From Lama glama (taxonomy: Eukaryota): DNA of 64,000 nucleotides. The notes beneath the pieces are model-generated. The model saw only the letters and a list, made by a program, of their open reading frames with translations, made no database searches and was not told the DNA's origin. The stretch is from contig CM052824.1 of assembly GCA_028534125.1 (NCBI GenBank), positions 60,202,001 to 60,266,000 on the forward strand. The letters are read 5' to 3'. A program made the translations under genes and the position numbers. Of the stretch, positions 11,254 through 59,280 are shown piece by piece (the stretch's first letter is position 1; every line of letters begins with the position of its first letter).

Positions 11254-11368
11254 TCATCACCACCATACCTACCACCACCACCATCACCATCATTACCATC
11301 ACCATCACCATCATCAGCATCATCATCATTACCACCGTAGAAATAGCAGCAGTAGCAGTAGCCACCAC
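11254..11368. repeat. Imperfect trinucleotide repeat (CAT/CAC)n then (CAG/TAG)n
   Basis: catcaccaccatacctaccaccaccaccatcaccatcattaccatcaccatc... followed by agcagcagtagcagtag. Confidence 0.9.
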
Positions 11369-12269: not shown

Positions 12270-14690
12270 GGGGCCCTGTAGGGAACTGAGTGTTCACCAC
12301 CACTCAGAGGCAGCGAGGTGATGTTTGTAGGTGCTTGCATTCCCCAGGAAGGTTTAGTGCGGCTGAGAGGCGAGCTGAGCCTCTGCTCCGCCTGTCTGAA
12401 AGCTGCGTGAGTTGCTGGGGAGGTGTCAGTGGGCCCGTTGCCGAACCCTGGCCCGCCCACCCGCCCAGCCCTCGTGCTCCACCTCGACCAAGGGGACTGC
12501 CTGCTACAAACAGATGAAATAGGATCCAGAGTTCCAGGCTCTACAAAACGTCTGGGGAAAAACAGAAAATCAGTCATCCTACCGAGAACCAGGAAAATCG
12601 TAACGTGGATGAGAAAAGACAATCAACAGATGTGATCGCTGGAGCAGATGGAGGTGAATCCGATGTTGGAATTATCTGGGCAAAGGCTTTCGAGCAGCCG
12701 TCGTAAAAAGGGGTTCAGCAAGCGATTACGAATTCCCTTGAGACAAAGCAAACAGGAAACTCTCAGCAAAGAATTAGAAGTTACAGAAAGAGAGCCGAGT
12801 GGAAATCACCAAACTGAAAAGCACAGCTCAAGTAAAAAGAAATGTGTTGGAAAGGCTCAACACTGAAAAAATACAAAACATAGTCGGATTTGTTTAGCTG
12901 GAAAAGTTTTGAAATAGAGTGTGTTGACAGAGGAGAGGATCACCGGCTTTCAGGACAGGTGGATAGAATTTGTCCAACCTGAAGACAGGGGAAGCAGACT
13001 GGAAAATGAACAGAGTCGCAGGGGCCCGTGGGACAGTAAGAAAACAGCAGACTTTGGTGTCCCTAGAGACCCAGAAGGGGAGAAGAGGAAGTGGACTTTA
13101 AAAACATAAGAAATACTAGCACCAACCTCCCCAGGTTTGGCCAAAGACACGTGCACAGATTCAAGAGGCTGGATAAACCCCAAATAGGGTAAATACAAAG
13201 ACAGCCATGCCAAGCCACGTCGTAATTAAACTTCTGGAAACTGAAGACCATGGAAAACTCTTGAAAGCAGCAGGGACAAACGACACACGACCTGTAGGGG
13301 AACACCAGTCAAATAACAGGATTTTTGATCTGGCCCCCCAGAGGCCACGGAGAAGGAACCAGCATTCGTCAACTGCTGAAAGAAAACGGCTAACTGTGAA
13401 TTCTGTGCCCAGTGAATACACCCTTCAGGGATGACAAGGAGGTAAAGACTTGCTCAGGGAATTTGTCCCTAGCAAACCGATCCTTCAAGAACTGCTAAGA
13501 AAGTCCGCTAAACAGAAAGGAAATAGCAGAGGGCAGCTTGGAACCGAAGTTCTAAGGGCGGAAGGACATGGCATCGGGCCAAAGTAGCGGTGAGCATGCT
13601 AGACTATCCTCGTGAGTTTCTGAAATCACTTGAGGATTGAAGGGAAAACGTAAGACAAGTCTATTTAAAAGCTGGCAGGATAAAGTGACTTAAACACACT
13701 CCACTTCAAGCAGAAAAACGTTACTCCCAGTGGGTGGTGGCGGCGGCCCAGAGCAATCACCAAGAAGGCAACACAAAGCAATGCCCCTAAAACCTTATCA
13801 ATAAGTCGAGATGGAAGCCTGCAAGGTGTTCAGGTGACCCACGGGAGGGGTTAGCCAGACCAGGAAGCCGAATGCTGAGACACGGAGGTTTGCAGCAGCG
13901 AAAAGGCTGATTCACAACGCACCAACCAAGGAGAAGGGAGACCCAGTCTCAGCTCTGCCTCCCCAAAGCCGGGGGTTGGAGGTACTTATAGGATAAAGGA
14001 GCAGGGTGGTCTCAGGTGTGGGGCAAGGCGATGGGAGGTCGGGAAGGGGTGAGATAACCGCTGTTCTGTGCAGGTGTGTCTGAGTTACTGCCTCCTCGTG
14101 GGACACATGTGCAAAAATGGCGGCTCTTAGCATGACCGGACGGGGGAGTGTTTGGTCCTCTGACGTCAAAGGCTCATTCATCAAACACCTGCTCAGCCCC
14201 GCTTTAGGGTCCGTGGTCCCAACCAGTCTCAGCCAGCTTGGGCTCAAACTAGGCACAGCTGGTTCCAAGCTCTCGGCCAGCAACTCCCGCATCTTACTGT
14301 TCGGGCTGCGTGGAAAGGAAGTGCAGCTTGCAACAGAATAGCTAAGGCAGCGCAGGCAGGCGACAGGAGGGGTTTATAACCAGGTGAGAGGTAAGTTCGA
14401 GACCTGCTGTTAGTCACCAGCCTGTTTGCCCTGTGGGGCGCGGTGACAAAGGGAAGAGAGGAGAAACGGGAACGAGAAACAGGCGAACAAGCAGAAAACA
14501 GCAGAATGGAACTCATTGCTGTAAATGTGAACCGTCTGCATCCGCCGATTAAAGGGCAGAAATTGGCGGGGCTTTTCAAATGGCCCACGACATGCCGTCT
14601 TCAGCACACCATACACACAGCTCAAATGTGACATAGTTTAAGGGTAAAAGGCTGGGAAAAGACACGCCAGGCCAACATTAAATGCACACC
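12270..14690 (+). mobile_element. Ancient LINE-1 remnant (L1MD-like): 5' region, ORF1, inter-ORF and start of ORF2, interrupted by an LTR
   Basis: A-rich plus strand. ORF1-like peptides such as PSHVVIKLLETEDHGKLLKAA (13207+; compare PRHIIIKL..KEKILKAAR) and the ORF2 endonuclease start IAVNVNRLHPPIKGQKLA...TTCRLQHT (14500-14631; compare ITLNVNGLNSPIKRQRL...ICCLQET). Many stops and frameshifts. Confidence 0.85.
13849..14448 (-). mobile_element. ERV1-type solo LTR inserted in the L1 inter-ORF region
   Basis: About 600-bp non-L1 insert; L1 sequence resumes on both sides. The right end gtgaca reads TGTCAC on the minus strand, and there is a near-identical 4-bp target-site duplication gagg (13845-48) / aagg (14449-52). 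It contains YY1 AAAATGGCGGC (14114-24) and CRE TGACGTCA (14161-68). Confidence 0.75.
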
Positions 14691-15643: not shown

Positions 15644-16804
<1,161 letters not shown>

Positions 16805-31535: not shown

Positions 31536-32429
31536 GCCCGCAGCGCCCTTCCAGCACGTCCTGGCGCCGCCGTGCGAGCCGACGGCCCCCGCTGCGCTTT
31601 GCTCTCCGCTCCTTGCACTGCTTCTGAACGCGGGCAGGGAGGTGCCCGAGGCCCTGACCGTAGTCCCAGAGGGTCCAGGCTGCGGCTTCAGGAGAAGTGG
31701 GTCCCTCTGTGGCCAGGGGAGGCTCTGGGACCGCAGAGGCTCCCTTCGTCCTGGCTGTTGGCAGCACCCGAAACACCTCCCGTCACATTAACCCCTCCAG
31801 TGAGGGCCACGGCGGCCTGGGCAGTGCTGACGGCCCCCGGACAAGGGCAGGCTCCCTTATCTGAGTGCAGGATGATCAGGCTCGCGGTCCTCACCACAGC
31901 TGGGTGTTTCCGATCCCGCCTGCTGCAATTTGGTGGTTACGTGCGTGTGTTTGCGGGGCTGTTCACGTAGAGACATCTCCTTTTTTCCAGGAATATTCCT
32001 ATTGAGATAACCCAAGAACACTCCTGTTTTAGAAAACGGCTTGGAAATTCTGGGCAGATACGACCACATCTTTCAAACGGAGAGGTGGGCTTGCAGAAGA
32101 GCAATGGAAATTTCCAGGGGCCCCCAAATGAATCACCTGACCCAAAATAGTAACTGAGGTGAGCTGACACTGTGGCCGCCTGGGGACTGGCTCCCAGATG
32201 CTGGTCTGATATGAAAGGTCTTGACGTGGGCTCCTGGGACTGGGGATGAAGCCCGTAGGCACCAAAAGGGCAAACATTTGAACTGAGACTTCTGCGTAAA
32301 GCCACGACCCCCGTACAGCCTCCGTGGAAGGGATGGATGTTAACAAAATCCACCTGCCAGCACACACACATTACCAGGAAGCTTGTCAGGCTTTGCCTTG
32401 GCTGAGACGGAAATTTTGAAAATCTCTTC

Positions 32430-35400
32430 TGAAGAGGAGCATTTTCAGAATGGCGGCATAGGGACCCCCAAAACTGCTCCTCCAAAAGCAAGGAGAGCAC
32501 TTGCTACAACGGTCAAAATCAATTTTTGTTTTTAGAACTCTAGAAATTCGTCTAAGGCCTCCAACAATTTGAAGAGCCTTTGTTCAAAAAAGAATGGTTC
32601 AATCTTGGTAAGAATAGAGAGCTTTGTAGCATTTTAACTCGCCCCCTTCCCCCCTCCCAGCGGTGTCATGGCCTGAAAACCAACAGCGTATCAGCCGCGA
32701 TAGCTATGAAAACAGCAGCCTAACGGGCACTGAAGAGGGAAATGCCAAGACAGTCCTGAGGATCGAGAAAGTCACACGCCCAGGGGGCATCAGAGAGGGC
32801 CCTGGTCTCATCCCTGGCTGAGCCTGGGGCTCTGTGCAAGGAGGGGCTGAAGGCCAAGGCGGAGCTGTGACCTGCTTACAGAAGCACCGACACCCCTCAG
32901 CAGCGTCTGAGGTTATTGGTTAAAGGTACTCAGAGAAATCTCTGTCCCAACATTAACTGAAGAAAAAAAAAAAAGCAGTCAGAAATTTCCCCCGAGGAAG
33001 CTCGAGCATTGGACTTACTAGACAAAGATTTAAAATTAGCTACTATAAATATATTCAAAGAACTAAAGGGAATCACGGCTAAAGAACTAAAGGAAAGCCT
33101 GAGAATGACCGCTCACCATGAAGATACTATCAGTAGAGAGGGAGAAACGATAAAGAATGGAAAATAATCAAATACAAATTCTGTGGTTGAAATTATAATA
33201 ACTGAAATGGGAAAAAAATCACTAGTGGGTTCAACAGCAGATCTGAACTGACAGAATAAAGAACCATCGAACTTGAAGTGGTAGATTGAGATAATCTATT
33301 TTAAAGGACAGAAAGAAAAAGGAATTAAAAACAATGAGCGGAGCCTCAGACGTCTGGGGACACCATTACGCATGGCAGCACACATGTAACCAAAGTCCCA
33401 GAATGAGAGAGGCAGAAAGGAATTTGAAAAAATAATGCCCCAGATGTCCCAAATTTGATGGAAAACATTAATCTACACATCAAAGAGCTTCAGTGAACTC
33501 CAAGTAGAATAAACGTCAAGGTTCCCAAACCAAGACCCATCACAGTCAAACAGCTCCAAGTGAAAGACAAGAGACTCAGAATATTAAAGCAGCCAGAGAA
33601 AAGCTGACTTTCCATCAGAAACTTTTAAGTCAGAAGGCAGTGGGATCACACATTCAAAATGCTGAAAGGAAGATACTGCCAGCCAAGAAGCTATATCCAG
33701 AAGAGCTATCCTTCAAAAGGGACAAGAAATGAAGACGCTCCAAGGTGAGCAGAGCAGGATGGTTCATCCCTAGCAGACCCGCCCTGCAGGGAGTACGCAA
33801 GGACGTTCTTCAGGTTGAGATGGAAGCAAGTCGAATTCACATCAAGAAATTAAAATTACCTATAAAAGGAACTAGAAAGGTAAATGTAAAAGAAGGTATA
33901 AATGCATTTTTTGTTTGTAACCCTTTTCTTACTCTATTTGATTTAGAAGACAACTGTATATAACAATACTTATAAAACTGTGCTGATGGGCTCCAAATGC
34001 ATAAAGATGTAATTTTATGACAATCTGGCACAGATGAGGGAGGGAACAGAGCTATATAGGAAAGCAGATTTGTATACACTATAGAAATTAAGTTGATATT
34101 AGTCCTAACTGGCTTGTAATCATTTAAGATGTTTATTATAACAGAGAAAACACTAAGAAAATATAGTAAAAGAAGCTACAATAGAATTAAACTGCTACAG
34201 TAGAAAACATCTATTTTACACAAAAGAAAGTGGGAATGGAGAAACACAGGAACAAAAATGACATAAGACAGATGGAAAACAAACAGCAAAGTCACAGACA
34301 TGCATCTTACACTATTAACAATTACACTTAATGTAAATGGGTTAATTCCCCCGATCAAAGGGCAGAGATCGGAAGGACAGATTTTTAAAAATCATGATCC
34401 AGCTACACGTTGCATATAAAAGACACGCTTTAGATTCAAAGACACAAATAGTTGGAAAGGAAAGAGATGGGAGAAATACACCATGTGACCAGAAATCAAA
34501 AGCAAGCTGGAGTGGCTGTATTCATACCGAAGATAAGACAAACTTTATGACGACAATTGAGAAGCGAAGAAAGACAATTTCTAATGATAAAAGGAACACA
34601 TCAGGAAGATATAAAAGTTACAGACACATATGTATCTGAAAACAGAGCCCTGAAATACATGAAACAAAAACTGAGAGAAATAAAGAAAGAATTCACAATA
34701 ATAGTTGAAGGTTTCAACACCCCGGTTTTGACAACGAACGGAACCAGGGAGGGGATCGGCCGGGAAACGGAAGACGGGGAGAGCACTGTGGACGGAGCCG
34801 CCGGCCGACCTCGCGGGACGCTCGCCGCCGGTGGCGGGAGCGCGGGCGGCCTCCGGGGCGGACCGCGTCCTAGGTCACCACAGAACCGCCGTAAGTTTCA
34901 AAGCACTGAAACGATGCAAAGTAAGTTCTCAAACCACAATGGAATGAAAGTAGAAGTCAGGAACAGAAGAAATACTGGGGCAGTCACAAATGTGTGGAAG
35001 TTACACACACACTCCTAAATAACTCATGAATCCACGGAGTCAGGAAGGAAATGAGGGCCGACTTTGGGATGAGTGAAAATGAAAACACAACATGCAAAAA
35101 CTTACGGGAGGCAGCCAAGACAGAACAGCACGAAAGTTACAGCTACAAACGCAGACACTGAGAAACAAGAAAGATCGCAGATCAATAACCTCACCTTCCA
35201 GCTTAAGGCACCGAGAACAGAGGGGCAAACTAGCCCTAACGCGGGAGGAAGGGGTGGCGGGCACCGCCGTGTGCCAGCGCGGCTGGGCCGTGGGGGACCC
35301 ACGGGCCTGTCAGACGCGGCTCCGGGTGCGTCTGTGCGGACGTTTCTGGATGAGATTAACATCGGAATCAGTGACTCAGTAAAGCAGGTTGTCCCCCTAA

Positions 35401-36790
35401 TACAGACGGGTCTCGTCAAGCAGCTGAAGGTCTGAACAGAACAGAGTCTGGCAATCCCAGGGGTAGGCGGGAACCCCTCTGCCGGCCCGCCTGCAAGACG
35501 GGACCTCGGGCTTCTCCCGCCTCGGGCTGGAACTGAAACACCTGGTCCTCCAGGGTTCCCGGCCTGTCAGCTCTTGGGCTGGAACGACACCGTGAGCTCT
35601 CCTGGTTCTCAAGTTCCTTCCAAGCATTTAAAAAAGAACCAGCACAAACTCCTACAACAAAAAGAGGGAGCACTTTCTAGCTCAAGCTATGAAGACAGTA
35701 ACATCCTGACCCTGAAGCCAGACAAAGACACCCAGGACAAGAAAACCAGACTAGACTCTAGGAAAAAGGCCAGATCCCTTTATGAATATTGATGCAAAAG
35801 CCATCCAAAGACACCAGCAATTTGAATCCAATGGCACGTAAAAACGCTCATACACCACGACCAAGGGGAATCCACACCAAGACATTAAGGCTGGTTTAAC
35901 ATAGGAAAATCAATTAATCTAAGGCACCCAATGAATAGAATGAAGACAAAAACAACACGATCATTTTAATAAAAAAGACAAATCATTTAACAGAATCCAA
36001 TACCCTTTCGTGGCAAAACCACTCAACAAACTCGGAGTGTAAGTGCACCTCCTCAGTCTGAGAAAGGCTGTCACGGAAAGTCAGCAGCTCATCTCTGCTC
36101 AGTGCGAACGCTGACAGCAGCCCTCAGCGCCAGGAACACAGAAGGAAGGCAGTTCTCACCGCTTCTGTTCAGCACTGCACGAGGGGTAACAGCCAGGGCA
36201 GTTAGGCAGAAAAAAGAAATAAAAGGCATCCAGTTTGGAGAAGAAGCAAAACTATGTTTATTCACAGGTGACACAGTCTTGCACGTGGAAAAATCCTGAG
36301 GAATAAACACACTAGTAGAATCAGCAGGTTGTAGGACACAGGTTAGTACACAAACAGAAATTATATTTCTACACATGAGCAACGAACTGTCTGAAAATGA
36401 AATTAAGAAGTCCATTTCATTTATAATACATTCAGAAAGAATGAACTCCTTAGGAACAAATTTAACAAAAGATGTTCATGACTTGTACGTTGAAAACTGT
36501 AAAACACTGTTGAAAGAAATAAAAGTGGTAAATAATGAAAAGATACTCGTCTCCATGGATCCAAAGCCTTAATATTGTGGAAATGGCAGTATTCCCCTAA
36601 TTGGCCCAGGGAGTCCATGCAATCTCCATCAAATTCCCAGCTGGCTTTTCTCTTTAGACAGTAATTGCCAGTCTTACCTTAAAATTCATATGCGAATGCA
36701 AAGGAACCAGAAAAGTCAAAACAACCTTGAGAAAAACAGGGAGGGTATGTCCAAAGGACACGGGAACCAACCCAAAGAGTTTTCAGCAGC
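32430..36790 (+). mobile_element. Large ancient LINE-1 (L1M4/L1MC/MD class): 5' UTR, ORF1, inter-ORF, ORF2 endonuclease and RT fragments
   Basis: Begins with YY1-like aatggcggc (32449); strongly A-rich. The EN peptide FLMIKGTHQEDIKVTDTYVSENRALKYMKQKL..FTIIVEGFNTP...FSNHNGMKVEV (34557+) and the RT peptide [10 protein letters not shown]...[27 protein letters not shown] (36102+; compare GCPLSPLLFN..IRQEKEIKGIQ..KLSLFADD) are present. Confidence 0.93.
35250..35612 (+). mobile_element. ERVL LTR MLT2 (B/D-like), 3'-truncated, nested in L1 ORF2
   Basis: gtttctggatgagattaacat..gagtaaagcag-like..gaaggtctgaacagaaca...ctggaactgaaaca...gctctcctggttctca follows the recalled MLT2 consensus. L1 ORF2 resumes at ~35613 after an internal deletion. 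Confidence 0.8.
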
Positions 36791-36799
36791 CAAAGCTGG

Positions 36800-37520
36800 A
36801 ACAGTTTGAATGATATAATAAATAACAACAGCATTAGATGAGGGGGACCCACTCGTGAGTTCATAAACAGATGATTAAATAGACAAACAAATGTGGGGGA
36901 ATAGGAAGCTCTCCTCACAGAAACATTTCAACTAAGAGACGTAAAAATGAACGGAGGGAAATTTTAAAATCTCCGTTAGAAAAACCACAGTAACAACTGC
37001 TGCAGGCAGAGTCCACCAAGGAAGCTGCAATACGCAGGTGAAGGTTTAAGGACGAACAGGATATTTGCATAGCCTCAAAGTACTGCCCCCCAGATGTTCA
37101 TTAGTAACGTGGCAGAGTAAACCCTGACAGAGATCACCTTGCCCACAACGTCCAGGCAGGCATCGCCTGCAGTAAGACACAGTGACGTCGCTGCGCCCTG
37201 CTAGCGCACACTGAGAAAGGTGTGTCACCTCCGCGACAGTCTCTCCTCCAAAGGCACCATCTCCACACAGTCATGAGGAAACAAGACGAACCCACGCTGC
37301 GGGACATTCTGACATACCTGAGCTGTACTCTTCAAAAGTGTCGAGGTCCACGAATGCCGAGGAAAGACAAGGATGTCACAGGCTGGAGGAGACCAAGAAG
37401 GCATGACAACCAAAGATAGTGTACGATCCTGGAATAGAAAAAGCACATCCGGGGAAACACTGGTGCAATCCAAAAAAAGTCCAAAATTTAGCTTAGAAAA
37501 TAACTTAGTAAAAAAGAAAT
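36800..37520 (+). mobile_element. L1MC4-like 3' end
   Basis: aacaggatatttgcatagcctcaaagt...cactgagaa...tcatgaggaaaca...gggacattct...gtactcttcaaaagtgtc...catgacaaccaaa...gatcctggaatagaaaa are diagnostic of L1MC 3' UTRs. Confidence 0.8.
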
Positions 37521-37639
37521 ATACATTTCTGCAAAAATCTTTTACCATTAAATGTAATTCAGAGTACACCATGAAAACGCATCAGCAGGGTCACTGCATT
37601 TTAGAGGGTAATCTCCAAAATAGTCAATAAATAAAAAGT

Positions 37640-38350
37640 TCCAATTCTAAGCAATTTCAAAGAATATTAACAAAGAAAGACCCCTCCCAAATGATTTAAT
37701 GGAGCAAAAATCACTCTGTCAGAAACAGGAAAGGGCAAGAGGAGAGGAAAATTACAGGCTGACCACACTTACGAACGGATTTTTTTTTTAATTCATAAAC
37801 AGGACGGCCAAAAATTAAACCCAGCAAGGTGGAACACGCAAGCCAATAAAAGACAAAATGTCATCACACAACGGGATTTATCAGAGGAATGCAAATGGCT
37901 TAGCGTAAGAAAGCTGAATTCCCATTAGTTACCACAAGTGTTCATCAGGCTTAGGTCGAAAGCAATCGACAAAAGAGTCAACGCACAGTAGTTTCAACAC
38001 TAAGGTTTACCTCCCTGACGGCTGGAGAGAGGTCACCCACCGCTGGTGTGACAGTTCAATTTTAGGAGGCCATCCGAGGACAGGCTCCTTCCCTTTTGTC
38101 CTCGTCACCTCTAAGCGTGACCCTCAGCTGTCCAATCCAGGAAGACTCAAGACCTCAACCACGTGTCTCCATAAGACTGGACACAAGAAGGATCAGAATT
38201 CCCTAAGTGCTGAAGTTGTACGTCCACTTCCGCTCCAGTCAGTCAGATCGTCCCCACGGTCACAAGCAGGTACAAAGGAGGCTGGGTTGTAGGGCGCGTT
38301 CTGAGCAGCCACAGGCTGAGCGCACGAACAGCAATTCTGTTTCTCTGAGA
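37640..38350 (+). mobile_element. Old L1 (L1ME-like) ORF2 RT fragments
   Basis: aggaaaattacaggc, gggatttatcagaggaatgcaaatggcttagc and ggtcacaagcaggtacaaag..ctgagc resemble L1 ORF2 segments. Confidence 0.55.
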
Positions 38351-38419
38351 GCAGATCAGTCTCCCTCTGCCTGTGACACCACCCCCGACCTCAGGCTCCG
38401 CCAGTGACGCATGCTCCTC

Positions 38420-38940
38420 TCCCAGGATCGGCTGGAGCAGGGGAAGGCACGTTCCCGCCCCCAGCACATCCAGACCACAACAGCACAACAGGAGCCTATT
38501 TGTAGGGATGATTAAGGTGCCAAATCTGTCAGACGAGCCCTTGAAGGGAGCAGGGTTGTTCTGGCAGCAGAGGTTTGAAGCGTGAGAGACATCAGACACG
38601 CGGGACCGTCTTCCCTGCTGGCTGTGAGGATGGAGGGGGCCACATGGTGAGGACGCGACTGCAGCTTCTGGGAGCTGAGTGAGACAAGACCCTGGCAGCC
38701 AGCCAGCAAGGAAACAAAGGCCTTAGTCATGGAACCACAGGCAGCTGATTTCTGCCAATAACGGTGAGCCCCAAAGAGGATTCCAAGCTTCAGAAATGGA
38801 CCCAGTCCACCCGACACTTTGCCTACAGCCTTGTGCGACCCTGAGCAGAGACCGGTCAGGCTGTGCCGGATTCACGACCCGCAGAAGCTCTGAGATGATG
38901 GCTGGTCTTCAAAGCCACAAAGTGGCAGCGTAGGAGATGG
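38420..38940 (+). mobile_element. MaLR LTR, MLT1E/F-like
   Basis: gaggatggagggggccacatgg...ggagctgag...agccagcaaggaaac...ctgatttctgccaata...cagccttgtgcgaccctgagcagag...cagaagctctgagat. Confidence 0.8.
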
Positions 38941-39059
38941 AAAGTCTAGACTTTCCATCTCTGTTTACAACCGACTAGCTCCATGCCGACTTCATCCTCA
39001 TCCTTGCAGACTCACGGAGCAGGGGCCCCCTTGTACGGCCACTTGCTTCTGACAAGGAC

Positions 39060-40200
39060 AGAGACACAGAAGAGTAGGGAGAGGATGGTATTTTTCACCA
39101 GTTGTACTGGGTCGACTGGATAGTCAGTCAGCAAAACAATGACACTTGGCCATTACCTCCCACCACGTGAAAAACATGCACTCCAGGCGGAGAGAGCCCT
39201 AAATGTGAGAGGAAACCAGTGGGATGTCTGGAGAGAACCTCGTGAAAGGCGTTCACGACCTCGCCAGGCCGAGGCTCTGAGCAGGGCACCCAGAGTACTG
39301 ACCAGAAGAAGATTAATAAACAGAATGAAGTAAAATTGGGGAATTCCATCCCTTGCAAGACGTCCACGTGAGTGGGGCAGGAACTCTGCGGCAACATGAC
39401 TGGCCAACGGATGGCAGCCAGGACGGCGGGGAGCGAGCCCGTGTCGGGAAGACCCACAGGCAACCTGATGGACACGCGGGCGCGCCGTCGAGAGGACCTG
39501 CGTGAAGGCGGAGCGGCAGACGGCCGAGAAGCATGAAGCAGCCCCAGCCTCCTCCAGCTTCAGAAAAATGCAAACAGAGCCCACAGCCCGCTAGCTCGGC
39601 GCGGCTGAGCCGGGAAGACCAACGAGCTGCGTCTTGGCGAGCGTGGGGAGCAGCGGGGGTCGCCCCGTGCTGCCGGGGGACCGCGTTATAAGCCAAAGGC
39701 TCTGGGACCCCTGAGAGGAGACTGCACAACCAGCACACGCTCCGGGGCCAGCAGTCCGCCGCACGGTCGTACCCGGCGGGCACGGTGCACGGGTGTCACC
39801 GCCGTCACGGACAGGATTATCAGCAAAGACCTGTAATCCAAACACCGTCAAACTGGAAACACTCCATGTCAGACCAGATGGGTGAGTCACTCATTAAACA
39901 GGAAAACGCTCAAGGGGGTCAGGATGCACCAGCGATTGTTCCCAGTGAGAAACCGCGCGCCTGAGGCCCGTGGCAGCGTAACGAGCCGGGCAATGACTGC
40001 CTTCGGTCCCGAACGTGAGGTCGCGGTGGGAAGGACCCCAGGGGGCTGCTGGGGTTCCGGAATGTCATGTGCCTCCACCTGCGTGCTGGATGCATGAGTG
40101 TGCCCACTTCGGGAAAATTCACTCTCTGGCACACCTATGGCTTTTCATTTTTTCTGGTTGTGCGTTGTCTTCAAACAAAATGTTCATTAAAAAAAGACGC
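39060..40200 (+). mobile_element. L1ME-like ORF2 C-terminus and 3' UTR (GC-enriched), ending in an A-rich tail
   Basis: cagacggccgagaagcatgaag...agaaaaatgcaaa (compare caaatggccaataagcatatgaaaa...ggaaatgcaaa). The 3' UTR gggggctgctggggttccggaatg...gaaaattcac...ttttctg...ttcaaacaaaatgttcattaaaaaaa closes the element. Confidence 0.75.
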
Positions 40201-40204
40201 AGCA

Positions 40205-40920
40205 GGAAAAAGAACAATGCCAAAGCATTCCAATAGAAAATACGGCAGAGGGCATCAGGGACGTTCACAGAGGCAGTCACCCGAATGCCTGGACATCTAG
40301 CAGAGATGCTCAAAGTCACCAGCCACGAGGGAGCTGCTCATCAGAGCAGGGGGGACAGGCCCCCAGGACCTGGCCGGGCAAGGGCAGAGGCCTGCCGCCC
40401 CGTGCTGGTGCCCGCGGGCTCATGGCTGCGCTGGAGGCGCCGGGGCTGGGCAGCGCCTGCAAGCTCTTGGCAAGTGTCGTAGGTGAAGGTACCTGCCCAG
40501 CAGTCCCACCCCTACAAAGCTCACCTGTGGGCCACAAGGAATCGCTGCACGAAGATCTGTTTTGGCATCGTTCACAGCAGCAGGGCCTCGGAAGGGACCC
40601 GGATGCCGTCCCGGGAGACCAGGCGAGTGTGGCCGGAACTGCACAGCAGCCACACACGTAAGCACGGCCGTGTCCCTCGGGGACGCCGCCACCCCAACGG
40701 GCCCTTCAGGCAACGCGCCAAGCAGGGCTGAACGAGTGATGCCCAGCGGAGGGTGGGGACAGCCAAAGCCACGGTGAGAGATTCCGGTGGAAACAGAACG
40801 GGCTTGAGGGCTGTCCAAGTGACAAGTGGGACGAAGGTGGCGTCAGCGTGAGTGCGGGCCACTGGCACGTTATTCTCCACACTTTTTTCTACACTGGAAA
40901 GAGTCCATGGTTCTAAAAAA
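40205..40920 (+). mobile_element. Second L1ME-like ORF2-end/3' UTR fragment
   Basis: ccaatagaaaatacggcagagg..acgttcacagagg, cccagcagtcccacccctac and ttattctccacacttttttctacactggaaa..ctaaaaaa. Confidence 0.6.
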
Positions 40921-41987
40921 TCCTTTGAAGAAGCCATTGAAACGGGAACTAAGAGGTCTGCGAAAGAGCCACGACCCCCTTCTCCCGGGGGCCCTCCCTG
41001 CCCCGTCCGCCCTTCCCAGCCTCGCGGCAGCTGGTCCTCCAGTCTCCGCATCTGATGTCGCACCCGGGGCCCCAGCCCCCGCCAGCCTCTGGAACCCGTC
41101 CCCCAGGGGATGTGTCTCATGGGCCATCTTCCTCAGGGGCGTCTCGGGTCCCGAGAGAAACAGACCTGAGTTTTGACCCCAGCTCCACAAGTCACCGGCT
41201 CCTCGGCCTCCGTTGAACCCCAGGGTCCTCTCACTGCCGCACCCAGAGGGCGGCAAGTGCGCCGGCACGGGAAGGCTCCACGGGGGCTGCTGAGGCCCGC
41301 ACCTGCCAGCCCACTGGAGGGGCGATGGGCTAGCCAGAGCCAGGGTAGGGCCACCTGGGCCATGGTCATGGCGACACTGACTGTCCCCATTGTGACCCTG
41401 GGCGAGCCCTCTGCTGTCGGACGAACGAGGGTCTGGCAGCAGGACCCTGAAGCTCTCGGGATGCTGGGCCCAGGTTCCCACAGCCGGGGCCTCGGGGGAG
41501 AGGGTCACAGGATGGCCACCGCCCCGCTTGACCTGCATTTCCCTGGCCTGGGGCTCCGTGCAGGGCAGGAGAGGAATGGCTGGCCACCCCCGGTTAATGG
41601 CCCCTGACTCTCACTTCCCCGGGTGTTAAGCTCCCCCTCCTCTCGGCCCACTAATTATCTGGAGGTTTTCCAGAGCCCTGAGCCTGAGAAGCGATTTCTT
41701 GGGGGATTTGGTTTGGACGGGAGAGCCTTTCCTGCAGGAAGGGCCTGCAGGTGCCGGCCCCCAGCCCCAGACAGAGGACCCCTCCTTCACCTCACCTCTG
41801 TGCACGTGCAGAGTTTGCTCACTGACTTCCTGGTCCCCTGGCCTCCACTGGGCCACCCGCCACTGGCACAGGCCGCCCAGCCACCCCACAGCCTGTGCAC
41901 CAGCCCGGGAGTGTCCCGTGTGCACACTAGGCGGGGGGATTCTACGCGCCGCTGGACACTTAGTAGGAGCAGAGTGAGTACTAAGTA

Positions 41988-43717: not shown

Positions 43718-44058
43718 AGATGGATGGATGCATCAATGGATGGATGGAAGAAAGGATGTATGAATAGATGAATGGATGGATGAACCATGTATGAATGGAT
43801 GGATGAACCATGTATGTATGTATGGATAGTGGATGGATGGATGGATGGATGGACAGACTGAGGAAAGGAATGGACGGATGGCTTGCGTGGACGGATGGAC
43901 GGACGGATGGATAGTCTGCATGGACAGATGGACGGATGGATGAACGGACGGATGACTTGCATGGACGGATGGACAGACAGATGGCTTGCATGGATGGATG
44001 GATGGACGGATGGCTTGCGTGGACAGATGAACGGATAGATGGCTTGCGTGGACGGATG
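43718..44058. repeat. (GGAT)n microsatellite with higher-order 23-bp and 29-bp units
   Basis: gaatggatggatgaaccatgtat occurs twice. ggcttgc-type landmarks fall at 43880, 43913, 43954, 43983, 44012 and 44041. Confidence 0.92.
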
Positions 44059-45599
44059 AGGAGCTGCAAGGCAGGTGAGTGGAGCTATGTGACAGCAGAT
44101 ACTAGAAGCCAATGTAAGGGGGTGGGATTCTGAATACTTTCTGTCTCTCCCTCTTACTTCTCTAGATTTTCCACATTCTCTACAGTGAGCACCATTACTT
44201 CCATAATCTGACGTAAACAAAGACCCCAGCACTGGTCCTCTCGCTCCTGAAGCTGAGGGGAGCAGAATTCTGAGGCACCGAGACGCTGGCCCGTCCTGGC
44301 TCCTGGGTTTGAAACAGAGGGGCCTCTTTCTCCTCTGGCTTGGGTGGCCGCCGCTGTGACGTCAGCCCTGTGGCGGGTAACTCGAGAATCATGTTGGGAA
44401 GTGCTGGGACTGATTGATCACGCGTGCTGGTGTCCTCTCCCGGGGGCCTCGGGCCAGGCCTGATGGGCAGCTGGCCGTGTCTCTCACCAGCGCTCAGGCT
44501 GGGAGCAGCATCTTCACTCCGCGGGGCGGACGGAGCGTGGGGATCGCGTTTCAGATGAGCCCGGTGGGGCTGGCATCGGGGCACACATGCCGCGTCCGGG
44601 CCGGGGCCGCCCCACCCCTCCTCCAGCCGCCCCGGGTGGGCAGCAGCTGCTGCTGCTTCTCTACACAGGACAAGACAGACAGCAGGGACCACTGCGGGAG
44701 GCCGGCCTGGGCGTGCAGGGCAGCTGTGGCTGGACAGCTGGGTCAGGAGGTGGACGGGGTCCAGGCGGCCCTGTTAACACAGTCCTGTCTGTGTTTTCTG
44801 TCTGAGGCACGTCACAAGCAGGTGCCTTTGGGAGGCCCAGGCGTGCGGGCACTATCTGAGTAACTTCTCGAAGCCTCAGTGCTGAGGCTGCAAAATGGGG
44901 ACCCCGCCTGCCCCAGAGGGCGGTGTGGGAACAACACGAGAGGGCCACTGCACGCCTGGACCCAGGAAGGGACCGGCCAGGGGTCCTGCCTGTTCACCTT
45001 GGGTGCGACTCGGAGCTCCCATCTCTGGTGGGTTTCGGGGAGGTCCCACACCTGGCTGCAGATCCCCAGTAGGAAGGCTGTGCGGGACACCCCACCCCAT
45101 ATCATTTCTGTCCCCACACTGGGCAAGGTCCGTGCCCAGGAGAGGGGCCCCTCACGACGTGGGAGGGGTCCCTGCTGACATGCTCGGTTACTTTTTATCA
45201 GGGGTACACTCAAGACATGGGTCTCCCAGCTAGAACCACCCAGAACCTCTGATCACAGAGACCTCACGTGTCTGGAGCTGACAGAAGCCACTCAGCAGAC
45301 ACGCTGCCTGTCACCTCGGGAGCGCTGGGGCCAGCCCCTTCCGGGCGATGCCGGGGCCTGGTGCAGGCCTCCCACTGCCCAGAGCCCCGACTCCATCCAC
45401 CTCGGGGTCTCCAAGGCAACCGGCTGGCTGAGCCCAGGAGTCAGCCTCTAGTCTGATGCATCTTCTGAGCTCGCCGGGGAGGGTGGAGGGCCCATCACGG
45501 GCCCTTTGGGGTTTTTGAGCAACACCACCGGACACCGGGCCCTCGTGCTGACACCCACCAGGAAGCAGGTCTGACCGCCAGGCAGAAGGGCTGAGCGTG

Positions 45600-59119: not shown

Positions 59120-59280
59120 GTGGAAGGATGGCTGAATGGATGGGTGTATGTGGATCGATGGGTGGATAGAGTAGACGATGCATTGAAGGATAGATGGATA
59201 CATGGATGGATTGATGGATGAATGGACAGATGGATGGATGAGTTAAATGTGTGAATGGGTCCTTGGGTGGTTGCATGGGT
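59120..59280. repeat. (GGAT)n microsatellite running into a gap
   Basis: ggatggctgaatggatgggt...gatggatacatggatggattgatggatgaatggacagatggatggatg. Confidence 0.9.

What the first reader, a model, noticed from the sequence alone, without database searches (positions are those of the whole stretch)
34735..34880. Sharp GC/CpG peak written over an L1 endonuclease fossil: candidate gBGC hotspot scar and de novo CpG island
Seen: inside an otherwise very A-rich L1 ORF2, ~145 bp switch abruptly to extremely GC- and CpG-rich sequence (gggatcggccgggaaacggaagacggggagagcactgtggacggagccgccggccgacctcgcgggacgctcgccgccggtggcgggagcgcg...cggaccgcgtcctaggtc). It stays collinear with the L1 consensus as I recall it (aagatcaacaaggaaacagaagacttgaacaacactataaac...gaccatatgctaggtc), and the peptide returns to L1 EN on both sides. 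Known: old L1s normally lose CpG, and GC-biased gene conversion at recombination hotspots fixes A/T to G/C changes in short tracts. Inference: this is a strong localized gBGC scar that has turned dead L1 into a CpG-island-like patch, possibly unmethylated and self-reinforcing.
Basis: partly seen in the sequence, partly recalled or inferred. Interest (0 to 1): 0.7.

Follow-up and report, generated by a model that had tools for sequence, protein, structure and literature searches.

The report
GC-rewritten patch in dead L1
A 146-base stretch of an ancient, broken L1 jumping gene near a chromosome end is far richer in G/C than other copies of that element, with most differences running from A/T to G/C; this is likely the footprint of long-lasting, recombination-linked GC-biased gene conversion, a known process seen here in strong form.

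Summary
The patch is real: GC 0.76, 24 CpG, inside an old L1 endonuclease fossil. Against the majority state of 28 paralogous copies it shows 57 A/T->G/C versus 5 G/C->A/T changes; the paralogs are GC 0.30-0.45 with 0-3 CpG there. The two shoulders are clearly collinear with L1 (z about 10); the central ~55 bases are not proven collinear and carry a ~28-base deletion. It is not isolated: the window is 60% GC, lies 1.3 Mb from the scaffold end, the L1 flanks are also biased, and further peaks lie within 1.5 kb. Simulation needs B about 8 over the element's whole life or 16-50 over part of it, too much for one short-lived PRDM9 hotspot although PRDM9 looks intact: a long-lived or recurrent hotspot is likely. 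CpG richness does not show lack of methylation. Known process (gBGC-class CpG islands); the scan already noted L1-to-CpG-island cases in other genomes.

The parts
33016..36734 (+). Old, broken L1 (ORF1 end, spacer, ORF2 start), interrupted by the insert at ~35250-35620
   Evidence: blastn collinearity with paralogous copies; stops and frameshifts in all frames; paralogs differ ~21% from their majority state (rates)
34581..35015 (+). L1 ORF2 endonuclease remnant, open frame through the patch
   Evidence: phmmer to human L1 ORF2 endonuclease in PDB, E 2.9e-5; no Pfam hit at 1e-3
34735..34796 (.). Left shoulder of the peak, L1-collinear, W->S 21 of 41 ancestral W sites, S->W 1 of 21
34797..34855 (.). 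Core of the peak: 14 CpG, no CpA, 1 TpG; homology to L1 weak; ~28 L1 bases absent near 34793-34808
   Evidence: no donor found in the genome or the neighbouring 84 kb
34856..34915 (.). Right shoulder, L1-collinear, W->S 17 of 41, S->W 2 of 17
35240..35345 (.). Second GC/CpG peak (15 CpG), over the start of an interspersed-repeat insert
   Evidence: pairwise to 19 of 19 copies: target-S/copy-W 0.37-0.44 vs target-W/copy-S 0.02-0.04; CpG count
35250..35620 (.). Interspersed repeat inserted into the L1; looks like an MLT2-type LTR remnant (name recalled, no call names it); limits approximate
   Evidence: 39 other matches in the genome; coverage 35283-35613
35440..35600 (.). Third, weaker GC peak inside the insert
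   Evidence: pairwise 0.20-0.29 vs 0.05-0.08

Best explanation
The patch is a piece of an ancient dead L1 whose A/T bases were replaced in place by G/C, likely through GC-biased gene conversion at a long-lived or repeatedly reused meiotic recombination hotspot near a chromosome end. Mechanism: heteroduplex repair at meiotic breaks favours G/C alleles (established knowledge), so neutral A/T->G/C variants fix several times faster and G/C->A/T variants, CpG decay included, are purged. Shown here: L1 homology of the shoulders, the direction and size of the excess, a weaker excess across the flanks, neighbouring peaks, the telomere-proximal place. Inferred: recombination as the cause; persistence over millions to tens of millions of years (from the size of the dose); hence a PRDM9-independent, CpG-island-type hotspot or serial re-targeting rather than one PRDM9 allele. 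Untested: germline methylation, present hotspot activity, the lineage in which it happened, any regulatory role.
For: 57 W->S vs 5 S->W in the patch; none of 28 paralogs exceeds GC 0.45 or 3 CpG in the same columns. Shoulders alone: W->S 27 of 52 vs 79 of 395 in flanks, Fisher p 2.5e-6. Changes are mostly transitions (A>G 30, T>C 13 of 57); W->W 1 of 88 vs 0.052 in paralogs. Flanks also biased relative to paralogs (W->S p 1e-6, S->W deficit p 0.005). A second, unrelated repeat 400 bases away shows the same asymmetry, so the cause follows place, not repeat family. 1.34 Mb from the end of a 61.58-Mb scaffold; gBGC tracts cluster near telomeres (PMC3744432 passages). Simulation: B x fraction of lifetime about 7-8 is needed, whereas human hotspots last under ~1.3 Myr and the strongest 0.3% of that genome has B 9-15 (PMC4510005 passages). 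Default hotspots coexist with intact PRDM9 in most placentals (PMC11161765 section 8); PRDM9 exons here are open.
Against: Core homology is not proven (241 of 2000 shuffles). S<->S changes are raised (10 of 56 vs 0.035, p 2e-5; shoulders 5 of 38, p 0.01), which pure gBGC does not predict; no simulated model fits all five statistics well (best acceptance 0.07), and TpG+CpA (7) is lower than simulated (12-15). Ancestral states come from paralogs that BLAST chose for similarity and that may mix subfamilies, not from orthologs. No polymorphism, recombination or methylation data. The peak (~150-200 bases) is narrower than typical tracts (median 276-788 bases at B 10-3 in PMC3744432 Table 2), and it fails the dog 'GC-peak' rule (ratio 0.97). 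PMC11161765 (section 9) warns that substitution-based GC* is not suited to single loci.
Confidence: 0.75

Rival explanations
1. Composite: gBGC rewrote the shoulders, but the ~55-base core is a separate event, a deletion of ~80 L1 bases patched with GC-rich filler or slipped local sequence, as after break repair.
For: Core identity 0.32, purine/pyrimidine class kept only 0.68; strict single-deletion fit not significant; S<->S excess concentrated there (6 of 24); an 8-base direct repeat at 34797 and 34824.
Against: Affine-gap score still beats 299 of 300 shuffles, and 34790-34860 beats 1967 of 2000; W->S rises smoothly into the core from both sides; no donor found in the genome search or in 84 kb nearby (the genome search skips common words).
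Confidence: 0.12
2. A small germline-unmethylated regulatory element (enhancer or promoter, perhaps for the actin-related gene 18 kb away) arose in the L1 and selection plus loss of CpG decay made it GC-rich.
For: CpG o/e 1.17, TpG/CpA nearly absent; intact intronless actin-related gene at 15644-16804.
Against: Loss of methylation alone (B 0, no CpG decay) gives ~10 W->S and ~3 CpG, not 57 and 24; CpG-making transitions are not favoured over others (9 of 21 vs 33 of 60, p 0.45); selection on ~60 sites in one direction in several separate peaks is implausible; no Rfam match.
Confidence: 0.07
3. Locally raised and GC-biased mutation (not fixation bias) produced the peak.
For: S<->S excess; models with 2-3x mutation plus lower B fit as well or better; C->G excess is tied to meiotic breaks (PMC9575207 passages).
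Against: W->W is not raised (1 of 88) and S->W is reduced threefold; all fitting models still need B >= 3.
Confidence: 0.04
4. Assembly or sequencing artefact.
For: Fragmented assembly (1,072,352 contigs).
Against: Leaving out two possible source runs, 16 runs from 8 studies and 4 organism labels hold 0.84-0.95 of 103 sampled words of 34300-35300; about 18% of word positions touch the patch, so runs at 0.91-0.95 must hold at least half of those if sampling is even (inference). Graded, transition-rich, L1-collinear shoulders are not an artefact pattern.
Confidence: 0.02

Closest known systems
gBGC tracts (phastBias; Capra et al. 2013, PMC3744432, passages seen)
   Same: Short tract of W->S excess, clustered with other tracts, near a chromosome end.
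   Different: Cumulative load far higher (66% of W sites changed) because it is summed over the life of a very old repeat; polarised by paralogs, not by a species tree; narrower than the median tract.
BGC-class CpG islands (Cohen et al. 2011, seen only as described in PMC4121359 passages) and new gBGC-made CGIs in dog (Berglund et al. 2014, PMC4350167, part 1, passages, section 18)
   Same: CpG-rich intergenic segment built by W->S fixation, not necessarily unmethylated or functional; species-specific dog CGIs are a few hundred bases.
   Different: This genome keeps an apparently intact PRDM9; substrate is an L1 endonuclease fossil; fails the 500-bp/10-kb GC-peak rule because the background is already GC-rich.
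PRDM9-independent (default) hotspots in placentals (Joseph et al. 2024, PMC11161765, abstract, sections 8 and 9 part 1, supplements searched)
   Same: Long-lived GC* peak in a species with intact PRDM9.
   Different: Hypomethylation, the defining correlate, is untested; the site is not a conserved promoter; camelids are not mentioned in that paper's text or its 4 held supplements.
HAR1-type GC-biased accelerated regions (PMC2873926, PMC3278478; search listing only; details recalled)
   Same: ~100-200 base, subtelomeric, nearly one-way W->S burst.
   Different: Here the substrate is neutral repeat DNA, not a conserved element; no RNA family match.

Membership tests
L1 ORF2 endonuclease fossil | Homology to L1 ORF2 EN and to many genomic copies | tested here: met
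gBGC tract | Homology to an AT-richer ancestor (in-place change) | tested here: met
   Shoulders: 0 of 300 shuffles. Core separately inconclusive.
gBGC tract | W->S accelerated and S->W suppressed | tested here: met
   0.66 and 0.09 vs paralog 0.116 and 0.268
gBGC tract | GC-conservative changes (W->W, S->S) near neutral | tested here: inconclusive
   W->W not raised; S->S raised (10 of 56), partly in the poorly aligned core
gBGC tract | Fixation bias seen in allele frequencies | not testable with these tools
   No population variants obtained; read laying returned no contigs
gBGC tract | High-recombination, telomere-proximal context | tested here: met
   1.34 Mb from scaffold end; recombination rate itself not measured
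PRDM9-independent hotspot at hypomethylated CGI | Germline hypomethylation | tested here: inconclusive
   Simulations with and without CpG decay fit alike (summed acceptance 1.19 vs 1.10); no methylome
PRDM9-independent hotspot at hypomethylated CGI | Stable over long times | tested here: inconclusive
   Inferred from dose B x fraction 7-8; no orthologs to date it
PRDM9-independent hotspot at hypomethylated CGI | Meiotic breaks or crossovers at the site | not testable with these tools
   No DSB or linkage map
PRDM9-directed hotspot (single allele) | Intact PRDM9 in the species | tested here: met
   KRAB, SSXRD, SET and zinc-finger exons read open at C35:26.883-26.896 Mb; splice phases and one or two small exons not checked; only ~3 fingers in this assembly
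PRDM9-directed hotspot (single allele) | Short life (~1 Myr) sufficient for the footprint | tested here: not met
   Dose needs at least ~15% of the element's life even at B 50; age of element rests on recalled substitution rates
Computational CpG island | >=200 bp, GC >0.5, o/e >0.6 (criteria recalled) | tested here: met
   Met by 34650-34998 windows and by 34720-35620; the 146-base patch alone is too short
Dog-type GC peak | 500-bp GC 50% above 10-kb background (PMC4350167) | tested here: not met
   ratio 0.97

The most novel reading that the evidence does not exclude
In a camelid lineage with intact PRDM9, dead repeats in an intergenic subtelomere have nucleated their own long-lived, PRDM9-independent recombination hotspots at nucleosome scale (100-200 bases, several in a row), building CpG islands from nothing by positive feedback and leaving a break-repair signature (C<->G excess and a central deletion); camelids would be an unsurveyed lineage with very strong default-hotspot use.
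Probability: 0.15. Interest if true: 0.6.

Novelty: new member of a known kind. Interest (0 to 1): 0.3.

Why it matters
As it stands it is a clear single-locus example of a known force, and a caution: such CpG-island-like patches can arise with no function and without loss of methylation, and they hide repeats from similarity search (BLAST alignments to the paralogs stop at both edges of the patch). Old repeats give a built-in ancestral state, so a genome-wide scan of this kind could map ancient hotspot footprints at ~100-base resolution and test whether new PRDM9-independent hotspots are born outside promoters, in a lineage that the main mammalian survey does not mention.

Tried and rejected
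Laying public contigs of 4 runs on 34700-34912 returned 0 contigs in 4 of 4 runs; the tool says this can be a filter effect, so it is uninformative. Tandem repeat origin: none of 19 TRF rows overlaps the patch. RNA family: 0 Rfam matches in 32000-41000. Donor for the core: only the self match in the genome; best local match 12 bases. CpG-specific repair bias: CpG-making transitions not favoured. Methylation inference from CpG count: not discriminating. PRDM9 loss (canid-like explanation): not supported. Search for paralogs of 39100-40340 found only itself; relaxed alignments to 20 fetched L1-downstream stretches passed thresholds for 0 of 20 and for about 5 of 20 (weak). For some searches (score test), 42, 54, 58 and 68 I dropped 6 of 28 paralogs as poorly aligned (L010, L014, L016, L017, L023, L027); searches use all 28; L028 was dropped throughout as the same copy as L025. 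Literature searches for the same thing in L1 or camelids gave nothing on point; the library lacks most subscription papers, so this is no proof of absence.

Full report
Observation. The segment 34735-34880 has GC 0.76, 24 CpG and CpG o/e 1.17; the L1 on its left (34300-34734) has GC 0.35 and on its right (34881-35220) 0.44. The rise is graded on the left and steeper on the right. The reading frame 34581-35015 matches the human L1 ORF2 endonuclease before the patch and weakly after it. The wider window is not AT-rich: GC 0.60, CpG o/e 0.52, 46 CGI-like segments; still only 0.23% of 146-base windows reach 24 CpG. So the L1 is the AT-rich exception in its neighbourhood and the patch is an extreme inside it.

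Setting. The window is G000:C9:60202001-60266000; C9 is 61,580,757 bases, so the patch is 1.34 Mb from the scaffold end. An intact intronless actin-family ORF lies at 15644-16804 (-), 18 kb away, with GC3 0.90; I recall it as ACTRT2, and a PR/SET hit at C9:59.91 Mb would be PRDM16, which would make this the counterpart of human 1p36.3 (labels and synteny recalled, not tested). The species is probably a camelid: an earlier scan note on this genome says so and the scaffold count and a SINE near PRDM9 agree with my recall; I did not test it further.

Direction of change. A search of the genome gave 46 matches (40 of 414 candidates scored), 29 loci besides the self match, 28 distinct copies. BLAST alignments stop at both edges of the patch, but the copies span it with 161-193 bases against 146 here. 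Against their per-column majority, the patch has 57 W->S, 5 S->W, 10 S->S, 1 W->W and 69 identical sites, 4 unpolarised; the left flank 38 and 17, the right flank 53 and 10. All 28 copies are GC 0.30-0.45 with 0-3 CpG in these columns. With 22 well-aligned copies the paralog rates are W->S 0.116, S->W 0.268, S->S 0.035, W->W 0.052, against 0.66, 0.09, 0.18 and 0.011 in the patch. The patch differs from its flanks in W->S rate at p 2e-15; using only the shoulders, 27 of 52 vs 79 of 395, p 2.5e-6. The flanks themselves are biased relative to paralogs (p 1e-6 and 0.005). Paralogs were picked by similarity, which favours unrewritten copies; they estimate the ancestor but are not a fair sample of how rare such peaks are.

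Is it collinear? Any GC-rich string forced onto AT-rich L1 would show W->S excess, so I tested homology. Shoulders 34735-34796 and 34856-34915 keep identity 0.61-0.63 and purine/pyrimidine class 0.88-0.90 and beat 300 of 300 dinucleotide shuffles (z 9.5, 10.6). The core 34797-34855 has identity 0.32, class 0.68, z 3.4 (1 of 300 shuffles reaches it); under a strict one-deletion model 241 of 2000 shuffles reach it, and 33 of 2000 for 34790-34860. About 26-28 L1 bases are missing, best placed at 34793-34808. No donor for the core was found. The core is therefore either near-saturated L1 with indels (preferred, since the excess climbs smoothly into it) or a small replacement.

Not alone. An interspersed repeat inserted at about 35250-35620 (39 other matches; MLT2-like LTR by recall) shows, in pairwise comparison with 19 of 19 copies, target-S/copy-W 0.37-0.44 against 0.02-0.04 at 35240-35320 and 0.20-0.29 against 0.05-0.08 at 35440-35600, with a near-balanced valley between; weaker peaks lie at about 33700-33800 and 36000-36200 (the L1 profiles there include poorly aligned copies). 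Two unrelated repeats share the bias, so it belongs to the place. Joined, 34720-35620 is 901 bases, GC 0.58, o/e 0.84.

How strong, how long. Forward simulation from the majority state with paralog-calibrated rates needs B about 8 for the element's whole life (between the B 6 and B 10 rows), about 15 for half, or about 40 for the last fifth. A grid fit on W->S, S->W and CpG prefers late, strong episodes (B 24 over 0.3, B 50 over 0.15, B 16 over 0.5) or lower B with 2-3x mutation. Copies differ ~21% from the majority (from rates), of the order of 80-100 Myr at recalled mammalian rates. Human hotspots last under about 1.3 Myr and the strongest 0.3% of that genome has B 9-15 (PMC4510005 passages). 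One PRDM9 allele cannot plausibly supply this dose; the site must have stayed hot or been reused (inference; camelid population sizes unknown). PRDM9 looks intact: KRAB exons, SSXRD, SET exons (E 2e-53 to human PRDM9) and an open last exon with about three fingers. That fits coexistence of default hotspots with PRDM9 in most placentals (PMC11161765 section 8).

Methylation. With gBGC this strong the simulated CpG count barely depends on 10x CpG decay (24 vs 23 at B 10; summed acceptance 1.19 vs 1.10). CpG-making transitions are not favoured.

Unexplained. S<->S changes are raised (10 of 56, p 2e-5; 5 of 38 in the shoulders, p 0.01), C>G 7 and G>C 3. Late-acting gBGC explains about half (means 4-6), misalignment in the core some more. 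C->G excess has been linked to meiotic breaks (PMC9575207 passages); with the central deletion this is suggestive only.

Artefact check. Excluding two possible source runs, 16 runs from 8 studies and 4 organism labels hold 0.84-0.95 of the sampled words of 34300-35300, which is hard to reach without patch words if sampling is even. Direct laying was uninformative.

Comparison. The process is in print: gBGC tracts cluster at telomeres (PMC3744432), gBGC creates new intergenic CGIs in dog (PMC4350167), and a BGC class of CGIs is recognised (PMC4121359 passages). The patch works like these and meets the testable features except GC-conservative neutrality (inconclusive) and the dog GC-peak rule (not met). 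The scan has already recorded L1 fossils rewritten into CpG islands in other genomes and gBGC footprints elsewhere in this genome (unchecked notes); nothing near this place. Searches for L1- or camelid-specific reports found none, and camelids are absent from the text and 4 held supplements of PMC11161765; supplements of the other papers were not opened.

Verdict. Real, mostly as described, best explained by long-acting gBGC in a subtelomere (0.75); a new member of a known kind; interest 0.3.

Noticed in passing
window 15644-16804 (-): Intact intronless actin-related ORF (377 aa from the first Met; ACTRT2 by recall) with GC3 0.90 inside a 1.9-kb CGI-like block.
   Followed up: partly
window 39350-39800 and 40200-40800: Long CpG-rich stretches that look by eye like GC-rewritten L1 3' ends; weak alignments to 3 fetched L1-downstream stretches reach 39600-39700 with target-S/copy-W 0.3-0.44 vs 0.03-0.07; the genome search finds only itself.
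   Followed up: partly
window 33700-33800 and 36000-36200: Smaller GC/CpG bumps in the same L1 with the same pairwise asymmetry.
   Followed up: partly
window 12458-14188: Another AT-richer repeat remnant with copies elsewhere in the genome; substitution bias not profiled.
   Followed up: no
window 37212-37495: A further interspersed repeat downstream of the L1; family not identified.
   Followed up: no
G000:C35:26883000-26896200 (L040, L041): Apparently intact PRDM9 at the very end of a 26.9-Mb scaffold with only about three zinc fingers; the array may be collapsed in this assembly or truly short.
   Followed up: partly
window 43719-44059, 59121-59240, 11255-11336: GATG/GGAC-type and CAC-type simple repeats; the 43.8-44.1 kb array has gained CpG-containing variants of the unit.
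   Followed up: no
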